Assembly (NCBI GenBank): GCA_963754945.1
Contig: CAVWIG010000035.1
Location: 1-48,259, forward strand
Direction: 5' to 3'
DNA length: 48,259 bases
From: Methanotrichaceae archaeon
GTDB lineage: Archaea; Halobacteriota; Methanosarcinia; Methanotrichales; Methanotrichaceae
This document shows positions 15,620 through 44,442 of this stretch, piece by piece. How positions within the stretch are numbered: position 1 is the stretch's first letter; every line of letters begins with the position of its first letter. The notes under the pieces were generated by a model. The model saw only the letters and a list, made by a program, of their open reading frames with translations, was not told the DNA's origin and made no database searches. Both the position numbers and the translations under genes were made by a program.

Positions 15620-17068
15620 ATGGCGGCAAAGGAAAAGATTATCGGAGGACACCTTGGGATGTACGAAGAGTTCCCAAGGAAAGGAGGAGCTGCGCCCACG
15701 GCCACCCATTACTGTCCGGGCTGCGGGCACGGAATACTTCACAAGCTCATCGGCGAGGCCATGGCCGATCTGGGAATCCAGGATCGGTGTGTGGTCTTGA
15801 GCCCCGTGGGCTGCTCCGTCTTCGCTTACTACTACCTTGACTGTGGAAACATCCAGGCAGCTCACGGAAGGGCGCCGGCTATCGCCACGGGCCTTTCCAG
15901 GGCGGAGGACAACGCCATCATGATCTCCTACCAGGGAGACGGCGACCTGGCCTCCATCGGCCTGAACGAGACCATCCAGGCAGCAAATCGCGGCGAGAAG
16001 ATGGCGGTCTTCTTCGTGAACAACACTGTCTACGGCATGACAGGCGGACAGATGGCACCCACGACCCTGATTGGAGAGGTGACTGCCACCTCACCAGGCG
16101 GGCGGGACCCTAGAGACGCTGGATACCCGATCCACATCTGTGAGCTTCTTGATACCCTGAAGGCGCCTGTCTACATAGAGCGTGTCTCCTTATCGGATAT
16201 AGATCACGTCCGCAAGGCACGCCGGGCTGTTAAGAAGGCCCTGGAGATCCAGAAGGATAAGTTAGGCTATGCGTTCGTAGAGTTCCTCTCACCATGTCCC
16301 ACCATCCTCCGGATGGATGCCCAGAGCGTGATGAAGTTCGTAAATGAGCAGATGGAGAAAGAGTTCCCGTTGAAGAAGTTCCGGGAAAGATCAGGAGAAG
16401 TTCAGCCCATAATCCGCCAAGAGAACGATTTCACCAAAGAGGCCCTTGACGATATCTTCGGCTGCGCTTCTGGTGTATGCGTGGAGTTCGTCCAGGACCC
16501 TGAGTTCCAGCCAAAGGGTGTTAAGATCGCAGGCTTTGGAGGACAGGGCGTCCTTTCTATGGGCCTGGCCCTTGCCCAGGCGGCCTTCGGATCGGGACGG
16601 TTCGTGTCCTGGTACCCTGACTACGGACCTGAGCAGCGCGGAGGCACATCGAACTGCTCTGTCATCGTGTCAGGAGAGCCCATCGGCTCGCCTGTCCTGG
16701 ACCATCCGGATGTTCTCGTGGCCTTCAACCGGCCGTCGCTGGAAAAGTTCGCCTCTACGGTCAAAGAGGGTGGAGTTATCATCTACGACTCTCTGGCTGG
16801 CGATTTCATGCCGCCAAAGGGCGTTAAGGCAATATCCGTTCCTGCGACCCAGATAGCCGGGGAGAAGGGAGCACATCAGGCTGCCAACACCGCCATGTTC
16901 GGCGCGCTGATGCAGGCAGGAAACCTGGGGCTTCCAAAAGAGGCATATGGAAATGCCTTCAAGGTGACCTTCGCCAAGAAGCCCAAGCTCATACCGCTGA
17001 ACCTGGAGATTCTTGAGGCTGGAGCCCAGGCTGTTAGGGTGCTGGAGATGGTGGCGACGAAAAAGTAG
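15620..17068 (+). CDS. vorA: 2-oxoisovalerate:ferredoxin oxidoreductase VorA (beta-gamma fusion)
   Basis: [11 protein letters not shown] motif GDGD..NN..YGMTGGQ, then gamma domain [15 protein letters not shown]. Confidence 0.9.
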
Positions 17069-42769: not shown

Positions 42770-42929
42770 GTGATTGCGTTAGACGAACAAGATTAGCATT
42801 TGAAATAGGCACTTTAGAATATCGCTTTAGATAGAGCCATCGCGAAGATGGAATTAAAGATCTACGAATAGCATCAGAAATGCATAGTAGTGAACCCCAT
42901 TACTAAGTAAATTAGCGCCGGGGTTGGGA

Positions 42930-42960
42930 TTTTCATGGCAAGTCTTTGGCGGCCTGCCAA
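42930..42960 (-). other. tRNA intron 2 (31 nt, T-loop 59/60)
   Basis: Strict BHB: T-stem, central helix UUCA/UGAA, two AAU bulges, intron stem UGGCAGG/CUUGCCA. Confidence 0.92.
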
Positions 42961-43011
42961 TTTGAACCCAAGCGTCCCTGGAAGGGACAACAGGTCTCGA
43001 GCCTGCCGCGT

Positions 43012-43042
43012 ATGAACTCCCGCCTGCCAAAACAGACGAGAA
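43012..43042 (-). other. tRNA intron 1 (31 nt, D-loop 21/22)
   Basis: Central helix GGAC/GUUC, 3-nt bulges UAU and AUA, long intron hairpin with G-U pairs; the exon-side helix is not immediately paired (relaxed motif). Confidence 0.8.
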
Positions 43043-43088
43043 TAGTCCGCTCTGCCACCCCGGCTCGCTTTACCAAGAGTAGGGCATA

Positions 43089-43098
43089 CTTTATATCT
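43089..43098. promoter_or_regulatory. TATA-box candidate for the tRNA (possibly shared with the divergent malic enzyme gene)
   Basis: CTTTATATCT lies about 25-34 nt upstream of the tRNA 5' end. Confidence 0.55.
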
Positions 43099-43182
43099 GT
43101 TGCTACTCTGACGAACGGCCCTTCCCCTGAACAAGCTCTCTACTGGACAAGGTTTATCTCTGAATCGGCCAACGGAGCAAAG

Positions 43183-44442
43183 ATGTCTCTTCGAGAGGAA
43201 GCCCTTGAATTTCACCGACTGGCCCACGGCAAGATCGCCATCCACAGCAAAGTCCCATGCCAAACGCAGCACGACCTGAGCCTTGCATACACACCGGGAG
43301 TGGCCGAGCCCTGTCGTGAGATAGAGAAGAATCCGGATGACGTCTACCAGTACACCTCCAAAGGGAACATAGTGGCGGTTGTGACTGATGGAACTGCAGT
43401 GCTTGGCCTTGGAGATATCGGCCCCCTGGCAGCAATACCCGTGATGGAAGGCAAGGCGATACTATTCAAGAACTTCGCCGGAATAGACGCGTTTCCGATC
43501 TCCGTTACCTCCAAAGACCCTTCGGTCATCGTGGACACTGTAGCGAGGATTGAGCCCGTCTTTGGCGGAATCAACCTGGAAGACATAAGCGCCCCAAGAT
43601 GCTTCGAGGTTGAAGAGAGGCTGAAAAAGATCCTAAACATACCGGTCTTTCACGACGACCAGCACGGCACTGCCGTGGTAACCCTGGCCGCGTTGATCAA
43701 CGCCCTAAAGGTGGTGGGCAAGGACTTCGGCGACATAAGAGTAGCCGTCAGCGGTGCAGGGGCAGCGGGAATAGCGGTCACGAAGTTCCTGCTCAGCTTC
43801 GGAGCCAAAGACGTTGTCCTCTGCGACAGCAAGGGCGTGATACACACCGGTCGGACTGACCTCAACCCGGCCAAGCAGGAGATTGCCCGGATCACCAACC
43901 CACGAAAAATCACAGGAAGCCTGGCAGATGCCATCAATGGAGCTGACGTCTTCATAGGCCTATCCGTGGCGGGCATTGTAAGCCAGGAGATGGTTCGCAG
44001 CATGGCCAAGGGCTCAATAGTCTTCGCCATGGCCAACCCCGTCCCTGAGATTATGCCAGACCTGGCTAAAGACGCTGGGGCTAAGGTGGTGGCCACCGGC
44101 CGGTCCGACTTTCCCAATCAGGTCAACAACGTCCTTGGCTTCCCGGGAATCTTCCGCGGCGCATTAGACGTTAGGGCCAGCGACATAAATGAGTCGATGA
44201 AGAAAGCTGCCTCTCTGGCCATATCCAGTCTGATCGAGTCAGTCTCAGAGACCTGCATAATACCCTCCCCCTTCGACAGGAGGGTGGTTCCCTTCGTGGC
44301 TGAAGCTGTAGCAAGGGCTGCTATAGAAACGGGTGTGGCAAAGATACCCACAGACCCGAAAGAGGTCGGCAGAAAAGCTGAAGCTATGATCCGACAGTTG
44401 GAGAAGGACCAATTAACGAATTCAGGTCGTGCATCTGATTAG
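43183..44442 (+). CDS. NAD(P)-dependent malic enzyme
   Basis: LSLAYTPGVA, VTDGTAVLGLG, PVMEGK, INLEDI.APRCF, FHDDQHGT, GAGAAG, MANP.PE, ATGRSD.PNQ.NN. Start is ATG 43183, not 42946. Confidence 0.96.
   Translation: MSLREEALEFHRLAHGKIAIHSKVPCQTQHDLSLAYTPGVAEPCREIEKNPDDVYQYTSKGNIVAVVTDGTAVLGLGDIGPLAAIPVMEGKAILFKNFAGIDAFPISVTSKDPSVIVDTVARIEPVFGGINLEDISAPRCFEVEERLKKILNIPVFHDDQHGTAVVTLAALINALKVVGKDFGDIRVAVSGAGAAGIAVTKFLLSFGAKDVVLCDSKGVIHTGRTDLNPAKQEIARITNPRKITGSLADAINGADVFIGLSVAGIVSQEMVRSMAKGSIVFAMANPVPEIMPDLAKDAGAKVVATGRSDFPNQVNNVLGFPGIFRGALDVRASDINESMKKAASLAISSLIESVSETCIIPSPFDRRVVPFVAEAVARAAIETGVAKIPTDPKEVGRKAEAMIRQLEKDQLTNSGRASD

What the first reader, a model, noticed from the sequence alone, without database searches (positions are those of the whole stretch)
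42916..43064. Hidden tRNA-Ser(CGA) split by two non-canonical introns in a euryarchaeal methanogen
Seen: the minus strand upstream of malic enzyme carries a full class-II tRNA cloverleaf (anticodon CGA, G discriminator, long variable arm). It only forms after removing two 31-nt inserts, 43042-43012 in the D-loop (21/22) and 42960-42930 in the T-loop (59/60), each closed by a bulge-helix-bulge-type motif. There is no intron at the canonical 37/38 site. Established: euryarchaeal tRNA introns are mostly single and at 37/38, while multiple non-canonical introns are best known from Thermoproteales. Inference: standard tRNA callers probably miss this gene (the ORF track runs malic enzyme across it), and the lineage may hold more cryptic multi-intron tRNAs. 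A few euryarchaeal non-canonical introns may already be catalogued, so novelty needs checking.
Basis: partly seen in the sequence, partly recalled or inferred. Interest (0 to 1): 0.85.

Follow-up and report, generated by a model that had tools for sequence, protein, structure and literature searches.

The report
Serine tRNA gene with two introns
This is a real serine tRNA gene of an acetate-using methanogen family, hidden from ordinary gene finders by two short introns in unusual places; one of the introns is ancient and shared with many related methane archaea.

Summary
Window 42916-43064 (minus strand) encodes a class II tRNA-Ser(CGA) interrupted by two 31-nt inserts, one in the D-loop (43042-43012, 21/22) and one in the T-loop (42960-42930, 59/60). 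ARAGORN and Rfam find no tRNA in the window. ARAGORN calls tRNA-Ser(cga) only after both inserts are removed.

The decisive evidence is comparative:
- All 22 full-length homologues from the same family carry both inserts.
- Exons are almost invariant. Insert sequences drift, but their helices are kept by compensatory changes.
- A sister family has an intron-less gene that matches the predicted spliced product across both junctions (78 of 87 identical; Rfam tRNA 47.7 bits).

The D-loop intron is old. It occurs in records labelled Methanosarcinaceae, ANME-2 and GoM-Arc1. The T-loop intron is confined to Methanotrichaceae-type genomes.

The T-loop intron has a strict bulge-helix-bulge motif. The D-loop intron lacks the outer helix, yet the genome's only splicing endonuclease is the two-unit alpha'2 type, which the literature describes as strict.

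No further hidden tRNAs were found. Splicing itself was not observed. I rate it a new member of a known kind, of moderate interest. It may already be catalogued in tRNA databases that I could not consult.

The parts
42916..43064 (-). Whole tRNA-Ser(CGA) gene (149 nt precursor body, 87 nt after removal of both introns); no encoded CCA
   Evidence: homologues
43043..43064 (-). Exon 1: acceptor 5' strand, D-stem 5' strand, D-loop up to A21
   Evidence: invariant in 21 of 21 aligned homologues except position 21
43012..43042 (-). Intron 1 (31 nt, D-loop 21/22): relaxed motif with central helix GGAC/GTTC, 3-nt bulges, 10-bp inner helix and no outer helix
   Evidence: H 4/4, h=10, h'=0; compensatory changes in inner helix; absent from intron-less orthologue L042
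42961..43011 (-). Exon 2: D-stem 3' strand, anticodon arm (anticodon CGA at 42999-42997), variable arm, T-stem 5' strand and T-loop up to A59
42930..42960 (-). Intron 2 (31 nt, T-loop 59/60): strict hBHBh' motif with central helix TTCA/TGAA, 3-nt bulges, 7-bp inner helix, and the T-stem as 5-bp outer helix
   Evidence: H 4/4, h=7, h'=5; compensatory changes; present in 55 of 59 Methanotrichaceae-labelled records (the other 4 are cut by contig ends) and absent from 21 of 22 Methanosarcinaceae-labelled records
42916..42929 (-). Exon 3: U60, T-stem 3' strand, acceptor 3' strand, discriminator G
43090..43096 (-). TATA-like box (ATATAAA) about 29 nt upstream of the mature 5' end; putative archaeal promoter (read by eye, not tested)
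   Evidence: sequence
43183..44442 (+). Divergent neighbour: NADP-dependent malic enzyme, likely true start. The ORF extension back to TTG 42946 that overlaps the tRNA has no homology support

Best explanation
This is the genome's functional tRNA-Ser(CGA) gene. It is transcribed from the minus strand as a roughly 149-nt precursor. In that precursor, the D-loop nucleotides G18 G19 A20 C20a and the T-loop nucleotides U54 U55 C56 A57 each pair with the 3' end of an inserted 31-nt sequence. This pairing forms the 4-bp central helix of an archaeal bulge-helix-bulge splice motif. The genome's single splicing endonuclease (a two-unit, alpha'2-type EndA) cuts two nucleotides into each 3-nt bulge. RtcB ligase then joins the exons, giving an 87-nt class II tRNA, and CCA is added afterwards. 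The D-loop intron is old, shared across the class and beyond. The T-loop intron was gained in the ancestor of the Methanotrichaceae-type family and has been kept since. Shown here: the gene, the exon boundaries, the motifs, their conservation, and the presence of the enzymes. Inferred: transcription, the cuts themselves, and which enzyme makes them.
For: (1) ARAGORN calls tRNA-Ser(cga) only after both inserts are removed. (2) Intron-less orthologues in a sister family (L042, L053) match the predicted spliced product in 78 of 87 positions and are identical across both junctions. The differences are paired changes in stems. That orthologue scores 47.7 bits on Rfam tRNA, against a cut-off of 29. 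(3) 22 of 22 full-length family homologues carry both inserts. Exons are nearly invariant, while inserts vary in sequence and length (30-47 nt and 30-44 nt) and keep the motif. For intron 1, the central helix is 4/4 paired in 28 of 28 homologues and the inner helix has at least 3 pairs in 27 of 28. For intron 2, the outer helix is 5 bp in 22 of 22 and the central helix is 4/4 in 9 and 3/4 in 13. (4) RNAalifold finds changes on both sides in 16 of 43 predicted pairs, concentrated in the intron inner helices. (5) The same motif geometry recovers this genome's canonical 37/38 introns in Arg-TCG, Lys-UUU, Gly-UCC and Met. (6) ARAGORN finds no other Ser-CGA in the genome. No intron-less copy was found in 5 near-complete relatives. 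(7) One EndA gene is present, 353 aa with two N+C units, and its best solved relative is the A. fulgidus homodimer. RtcB is present. (8) The class-wide scan matched 92 of 104 family genomes. In named records, 55 of 59 labelled Methanotrichaceae have the T-loop insert and the other 4 are cut by contig ends.
Against: No spliced RNA was seen. Contigs from three metatranscriptome runs cover the locus only in the unspliced form, and no joint was reported. Contigs are poor at capturing tRNAs, and DNA carry-over is possible. Intron 1 lacks the outer helix in 28 of 28 homologues. The literature read here says that alpha4 and alpha'2 endonucleases cut only strict motifs, and that the A. fulgidus enzyme failed on a relaxed D-loop intron of M. 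kandleri (PMC5829648 passages; PMC4033280 passages). The minimum-energy fold of this one sequence does not form intron 1's central helix, although the family consensus fold does. The D-stem has an A12.C23 mismatch, but this is conserved in all homologues, including the intron-less ones. ARAGORN acceptance after in-silico splicing is not specific by itself: relaxed scans gave 28 other spurious groups genome-wide.
Confidence: 0.88

Rival explanations
1. The gene is real and both inserts are removed, but the D-loop insert is not a normal substrate of the alpha'2 endonuclease acting alone. Its 3' cut might need the folded tRNA body (the D-stem acting as a displaced outer helix), an alternative 2-bp pairing G15-C25/C16-G24 with a 4-nt bulge, prior removal of the T-loop intron, or a helper factor.
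For: The outer helix is absent in 28 of 28 homologues, whereas this genome's canonical introns and the T-loop intron have 5-6 bp outer helices. Published assays show an alpha'2 enzyme cutting only the intact bulge of a relaxed D-loop intron (PMC5829648, passages read). Two-domain single-ORF EndA genes are also the only ones found in four other carriers of the intron.
Against: Nothing tested here discriminates between this and the main explanation. All nucleotides that could form the alternative pairing are invariant, so covariation is silent. The intron is kept in many lineages with ordinary-looking alpha'2 genes, which suggests the standard enzyme suffices.
Confidence: 0.3
2. The locus is a decaying tRNA pseudogene disrupted by two insertions, and TCG codons are read by tRNA-Ser(UGA).
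For: Standard finders do not call it. The D-stem has an A.C mismatch. No spliced RNA was seen.
Against: Exons are invariant or change only by compensatory pairs across dozens of genera, while the inserts drift freely yet keep their helices. The mismatch is also present in intron-less orthologues that score 47.7 bits. The arrangement is present in 92 of 104 sampled family genomes.
Confidence: 0.03
3. The inserts are retained in the mature RNA as expansion segments, or the match to a cloverleaf is a chance product of choosing two deletions.
For: ARAGORN accepts many arbitrary double deletions elsewhere: 28 spurious groups in the relaxed scan and many alternative calls on a related gene.
Against: The inserts sequester G18 G19 and U54 U55 C56, which a working tRNA elbow needs. 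The deletions chosen are exactly those that reproduce a natural intron-less orthologue. The locus was hit by 19 candidate pairs, against 1-7 for the spurious groups.
Confidence: 0.02

Closest known systems
Non-canonical bulge-helix-bulge tRNA introns of Thermoproteales and other Crenarchaeota (multiple introns per gene, including in the D- and T-loops)
   Same: Short protein-spliced introns outside 37/38, two per gene, each defined by a 4-bp helix flanked by 3-nt bulges. The gene is invisible to intron-naive finders. One motif is strict and one is relaxed.
   Different: The host is a euryarchaeal (Halobacteriota) methanogen with a single two-unit alpha'2 EndA, not the heterotetrameric enzyme with the Crenarchaea-specific loop that the literature links to relaxed motifs (PMC5829648, PMC4033280). 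Only one gene per genome is affected, not most of them.
Multi-intron tRNAs of the euryarchaea Methanopyrus kandleri and Methanothermobacter thermautotrophicus (the only Euryarchaeota listed for multiple introns in the review PMC4033280, table passage read)
   Same: Euryarchaeal tRNA genes with more than one intron. M. kandleri tRNA-Glu(UUC) also has a relaxed intron in the D-loop (PMC5829648).
   Different: Those genes combine a canonical 37/38 intron with one other; here neither intron is at 37/38. M. kandleri has an (alpha-beta)2 enzyme, whereas this one is alpha'2. The lineage (Methanotrichaceae-type family) is not in that list.
The same tRNA-Ser(CGA) gene with only the D-loop intron in records labelled Methanococcoides, Methanohalophilus, Methanohalobium, Methanosalsum, ANME-2 and Ca. 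Argoarchaeum
   Same: Orthologous gene with the same exon sequences, the same D-loop position and the same GGAC/GTCY central helix.
   Different: No T-loop intron: 21 of 22 Methanosarcinaceae-labelled and 5 of 6 ANME-2/GoM-Arc1-labelled loci lack it, and the remaining two are cut by contig ends.

Membership tests
Archaeal endonuclease-spliced (bulge-helix-bulge) tRNA intron | Central 4-bp helix flanked on opposite strands by two 3-nt bulges, with cuts two nucleotides into each bulge | tested here: met
   Intron 1: GGAC/GTTC, bulges TA|T and AT|A, paired 4/4 in 28 of 28 homologues. Intron 2: TTCA/TGAA, bulges AA|T and AA|T, paired 4/4 in 9 and 3/4 in 13 of 22. The same geometry recovers four canonical introns of this genome.
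Archaeal endonuclease-spliced (bulge-helix-bulge) tRNA intron | Removal at the predicted sites restores a canonical tRNA | tested here: met
   ARAGORN calls tRNA-Ser(cga), 87 nt. The product matches a natural intron-less orthologue across both junctions, and that orthologue scores 47.7 bits on Rfam RF00005.
Archaeal endonuclease-spliced (bulge-helix-bulge) tRNA intron | Splicing endonuclease and RNA ligase encoded in the genome | tested here: met
   One EndA gene with two PF02778+PF01974 units in a 353-aa ORF (NCBIfam NF006795 503.6 bits). RtcB 595.9 bits.
Archaeal endonuclease-spliced (bulge-helix-bulge) tRNA intron | Spliced exons and excised or circular intron detectable in RNA | tested here: inconclusive
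   Contigs from 4 metatranscriptome runs were laid. Contigs from three of them (X1, X3, X4) cover the locus in its unspliced form, and no joints were reported. Assembled contigs of total RNA are not suited to tRNAs.
Strict hBHBh' motif (substrate class ascribed to alpha4 and alpha'2 endonucleases) | Both bulges closed by a helix on each side (inner h and outer h') | tested here: not met
   Intron 1 has h'=0 in 28 of 28 homologues. Intron 2 meets the criterion (h=7, h'=5 here; h'=5 in 22 of 22).
Class II tRNA-Ser | Long variable arm, anticodon for a serine codon, G73 discriminator, 3-bp D-stem region | tested here: met
   ARAGORN drawing and Rfam alignment of the orthologue. The D-stem pair 12-23 is A.C, conserved in all homologues.

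The most novel reading that the evidence does not exclude
In methane archaea of the Halobacteriota, tRNA-Ser(CGA) is a long-lived intron hot spot. A relaxed D-loop intron without an outer helix has been kept since before the families diverged. At least two lineages have each added a second intron at a different site: the T-loop 59/60 in the Methanotrichaceae-type family, and the variable loop in a peat/fen lineage. All of these lineages have only an alpha'2 endonuclease. This would mean the accepted rule (alpha'2 enzymes, strict motif, one intron at 37/38) is wrong for a whole class, and that these alpha'2 enzymes or their cellular context handle relaxed motifs.
Probability: 0.3. Interest if true: 0.6.

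Novelty: new member of a known kind. Interest (0 to 1): 0.45.

Why it matters
The finding corrects the tRNA inventory of Methanothrix-type methanogens. A decoder for the TCG codon that ARAGORN and Rfam report as absent is in fact present, so 'missing tRNA-CNN' counts for this group can be artefacts.

It also gives a clean natural series for studying how archaeal tRNA introns are gained and kept. The same gene occurs with no intron, with one, or with two, and the second intron sits at different sites in different lineages.

Finally, it offers a test case for endonuclease specificity. A conserved relaxed D-loop motif occurs in lineages that have only the two-unit alpha'2 enzyme. Reviews and in-vitro work describe that enzyme as unable to process such motifs.

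Tried and rejected
Spliced RNA. One search of sequencing runs and one laying of four metatranscriptome runs showed contigs that bridge the introns in unspliced form, for example one 797-nt contig at depth 37 spanning 42913-43067. No joints were reported. This neither shows nor excludes splicing. The runs hold small shares of the query and are contigs, so I draw no conclusion on habitat or expression.

More hidden tRNAs. I took blastn-short of the 43 ARAGORN tRNAs against the genome. I then ran a strict BHB scan (203,661 candidates; singles and 529,676 pairs) and a relaxed one (616,577 candidates; 4,498,360 pairs), with ARAGORN on every spliced variant. Only the C35 Ser-CGA is convincing. The other new calls duplicate existing anticodons or give class I tRNAs of 90 nt or more (Arg-ccg, Gly-ccc, Pro-ggg), and I rejected them as false. 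My first single-intron run used a wrong ARAGORN option that set a minimum intron length of 10. It was repeated correctly. The anticodons missing from this 87.7%-complete assembly (Arg-CCG, Gly-CCC, Leu-TAA, Pro-GGG, Ser-GCT) remain unexplained and may lie in unassembled parts.

Literature. Seven searches found no paper in the held library that describes non-canonical tRNA introns in Methanosaeta/Methanothrix, Methanosarcinales, Methanococcoides or ANME-2. The most relevant primary catalogues are not held: Marck and Grosjean 2003, Sugahara 2007 and Sugahara 2008. PMC2237900 shows that SPLITS was run in 2008 on Methanosaeta thermophila PT and Methanococcoides burtonii (passages), so the gene may sit in that database. 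Supplements were not consulted. tRNAscan-SE and GtRNAdb were not available.

Box C/D guide in the introns: I saw no conserved motif by eye in the alignment and did not pursue it.

Relation between the two introns: they share a 9-nt word in this genome but not in relatives. I rejected this as evidence of common origin.

Full report
**What is there.** The minus strand of window 43064-42916 reads as five consecutive pieces:
- 22 nt of tRNA 5' sequence
- a 31-nt insert (43042-43012)
- 51 nt containing an anticodon arm with CGA (42999-42997), a long variable arm and the first half of a T-arm
- a second 31-nt insert (42960-42930)
- 14 nt completing the T-stem and acceptor stem, ending in a G discriminator

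ARAGORN finds no tRNA in the 48-kb window. Rfam finds nothing at its gathering thresholds. Even at E up to 1, the tRNA model does not match the locus (L001). When both inserts are removed inside a script, ARAGORN calls an 87-nt tRNA-Ser(cga). Removing either insert alone gives nothing with default settings.

**Is it more than chance?** ARAGORN acceptance after in-silico splicing is weak evidence on its own. My relaxed genome-wide scan produced 28 other groups of spurious calls. The decisive evidence is comparative.
- A BLAST of the 149 nt against 41 related genomes matched 39. In the same family (f1), 23 of 24 genomes matched.
- I extracted 22 full-length family homologues. I left out L005 and L023, which are cut by contig ends. 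All 22 have both inserts.
- In a 21-sequence alignment the exons are almost entirely invariant. The inserts differ in sequence and length: 30-47 nt for the first and 30-44 nt for the second.
- RNAalifold found 43 consensus pairs, and 16 of them carry changes on both sides. These are concentrated in the inner helices of the two inserts.
- A wider draw of 301 genomes of the class matched in 228. Of the family genomes, 92 of 104 matched, most over the full 1-149.

**The splice junctions.** A sister family (f4; L042, L053) has the same gene with no inserts. It is identical to the predicted spliced product across both junctions and at 78 of 87 positions overall. The differences are paired changes in the acceptor, T and variable stems. 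That natural intron-less gene scores 47.7 bits on Rfam tRNA (cut-off 29) over the full model. I use this score as a proxy for the covariance score of the spliced product, which I could not score directly. The A12.C23 mismatch in the D-stem, which might suggest a defect, is present in every homologue, including the intron-less ones.

**Motif anatomy.** I scored each homologue for four features: the 4-bp central helix (H), the 3-nt bulges with the cut after the second bulge nucleotide, the inner helix (h) and the outer helix (h'). The same geometry recovered this genome's canonical 37/38 introns in Arg-TCG, Lys-UUU, Gly-UCC and Met, each with an outer helix of 5-6 bp.
- The T-loop intron here is a strict hBHBh'. 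H is TTCA/TGAA, h is 7 bp, and h' is the 5-bp T-stem. Across 22 homologues h' is always 5 bp. H is fully paired in 9 and has one mismatch in 13.
- The D-loop intron has H GGAC/GTTC (4/4 in 28 of 28). Its inner helix has at least 3 contiguous pairs in 27 of 28. It has no outer helix in any of the 28.
- At best, G15-C25 and C16-G24 could pair if the 3' bulge were 4 nt. All these positions are invariant, so covariation cannot test the idea.
- The minimum-energy fold of this one sequence extends the inner helix instead of forming H. The family consensus fold does form H.
- In both motifs the exon strand of H consists of elbow nucleotides: G18 G19 in the D-loop, and U54 U55 C56 in the T-loop.

**The enzymes.** The genome has one splicing-endonuclease gene. 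It is a 353-aa ORF with two tandem N-terminal plus catalytic units. Its best match among solved structures is the homodimeric A. fulgidus enzyme (1R0V/2GJW, E 3e-41), and it matches NCBIfam NF006795 above cut-off. This is the alpha'2 type. RtcB ligase is present. Four other genomes that carry the D-loop intron also show two catalytic domains in a single 351-403-aa ORF.

The papers I read in passages state that alpha4 and alpha'2 enzymes cut only strict motifs (PMC4033280; PMC4090602). They also report that the A. fulgidus enzyme did not efficiently remove a relaxed D-loop intron of M. kandleri (PMC5829648). The conserved relaxed D-loop intron in alpha'2 lineages is therefore the one feature that does not fit the textbook picture.

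**Distribution.** Six loci from sister family f3 have only the D-loop intron. Representatives of families f2, f5 and f6 also have a D-loop insert of 17-35 nt. Family f4 has none. Two large-genome genera of f3 (g21 and g25; 0 of 40 and 0 of 6 matched) carry a different, intron-less Ser-CGA gene.

Sorted by the label of the record:

| Record label | Loci | T-loop insert present | T-loop insert absent | Cut by contig end |
|---|---|---|---|---|
| Methanothrix, Methanosaeta, Methanocrinis or Methanotrichaceae | 59 | 55 | 0 | 4 |
| Methanosarcinaceae | 22 | 0 | 21 | 1 |
| ANME-2 / GoM-Arc1 | 6 | 0 | 5 | 1 |
| Unspecific labels (Methanosarcinales without a family, or generic archaeon) | 29 | 8 | 21 | 0 |
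| Bacterial, Bathyarchaeia or Nanoarchaeia (probably mis-binned contigs) | 3 | 0 | 3 | 0 |

The T-loop inserts found are 30-34 nt long. So the D-loop intron predates the family, and the T-loop intron is a family-level gain that has been kept.

**A second independent double-intron form.** Twelve of those named loci carry a 17-nt D-loop insert and a 51-nt variable region in place of 18-19 nt. Eleven bear generic archaeon labels, several from peat or fen bins, and one is labelled Bathyarchaeia. The extra length corresponds to an insert of about 32 nt in the variable loop. Its best candidate motif uses the variable-arm stem as a 5-bp outer helix. I followed this up only partly.

**Is this the only hidden tRNA?**
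- ARAGORN with the intron option finds 43 tRNAs in the 54-contig, 87.7%-complete genome, and none is Ser-CGA.
- Its 'tRNA-SeC' at C17:216900-216990 is in fact Arg-TCG with a canonical 16-nt intron.
- Two BHB-aware scans, strict and relaxed, covering single introns and pairs, recovered the C35 gene and nothing else convincing.
- In two complete genomes of the family, Rfam finds 46 tRNAs each, none at the Ser-CGA locus. A complement of about 46 is my recollection of the usual archaeal set, so little room is left for further hidden genes.
- No intron-less Ser-CGA of this type exists in five near-complete relatives. The intron-less query matches them only in pieces about 31 nt apart.

**Surroundings.** A TATA-like ATATAAA lies about 29 nt upstream of the mature 5' end (43096-43090, read by eye). 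No CCA is encoded. The divergent neighbour is an NADP-malic enzyme. Its long ORF from TTG 42946 overlaps the tRNA, but homology starts at the ATG at 43183.

**Expression.** Contigs from three metatranscriptome runs cover the locus in unspliced form, and no skipping joints were reported. This neither shows nor excludes splicing.

**Novelty.** Introns of this kind, at these positions and two to a gene, are well known in Crenarchaeota. The review PMC4033280 lists only M. kandleri and M. thermautotrophicus among Euryarchaeota for multiple introns. PMC4090602 says that Euryarchaeota have only one intron, at the canonical position. Seven literature searches found no description for this lineage.

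The primary catalogues are not held, supplements are closed, and tRNAscan-SE and GtRNAdb were not available. SPLITS was run on a Methanosaeta and a Methanococcoides genome in 2008 (PMC2237900). I therefore rate this a new member of a known kind that may already sit unremarked in a database.

**Verdict.** The mechanism (EndA and RtcB splicing of two introns) is very likely but was not observed directly. Interest is moderate, and it rests on the relaxed D-loop motif in an alpha'2-only lineage and on the clean evolutionary series.

Noticed in passing
L055, L069, L070, L072, L073, L076, L077, L086, L103, L115, L126, L138 (gene found by pattern in each; e.g. L073:3847-3895 is the D-loop part): A different lineage (generic archaeon labels, several from peat/fen bins) has the same tRNA-Ser(CGA) with a short 17-nt D-loop insert plus an insert of about 32 nt in the variable loop (variable region 51 nt instead of 18-19). 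This looks like a second, independent double-intron form. The candidate motif uses the variable-arm stem as outer helix.
   Followed up: partly
L042:136-221, L053:130-215; L038:1479-1562, L039, L041: One sister family has the orthologous Ser-CGA gene with no intron at all. Two large-genome genera of another family carry a quite different, intron-less Ser-CGA (55 of 87 positions identical to this one). So the intron was lost, or the gene replaced, more than once.
   Followed up: partly
G000:C17:216900-216990: ARAGORN's 'tRNA-SeC(tca)' is a miscall. Removing a canonical 16-nt intron (216937-216952) with a good bulge-helix-bulge motif gives a 75-nt tRNA-Arg(TCG).
   Followed up: yes
G000:C15:23493-23550, C22:9043-9096, C21:33210-33265; C10:5732-5764 and 16445-16466; C29:24375-24412: There are exact copies of the 3' parts of tRNA-Leu(CAA) and tRNA-Leu(TAG) away from the full genes, and degenerate Leu-like fragments inside a repeated context on C10. 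These look like attachment-site duplications left by integrated elements. C29 holds a 3' part of a Leu(TAA)-like tRNA without a recognisable 5' half.
   Followed up: no
G000:C12:4557-4664, C15:21572-21679, C19:15590-15697, C23:11173-11280, C28:79681-79788, C4:1824-1931, C47:24116-24223, C53:10669-10776: The same false 'tRNA-Ala(cgc)' call with identical geometry recurs at eight loci. A repeated element of unknown kind is therefore present in at least eight copies.
   Followed up: no
window 42916-43064 and all homologues: The D-stem pair 12-23 is an A.C mismatch, conserved in every homologue across families, with or without introns. Both introns in this genome, and exon 2, share the word GGCAGGC, which relatives' introns do not.
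   Followed up: partly
window 42946-43182: The 498-aa ORF from TTG 42946 is about 79 codons longer than the region homologous to malic enzyme, and it overlaps the tRNA on the other strand. An annotation using the longest ORF would mask the tRNA.
   Followed up: yes
G000:C7:107794-108002: tRNA-Trp carries a long (134-nt) canonical intron, the largest in the genome. From recollection, archaeal Trp introns often hold a box C/D guide; I did not check this.
   Followed up: no
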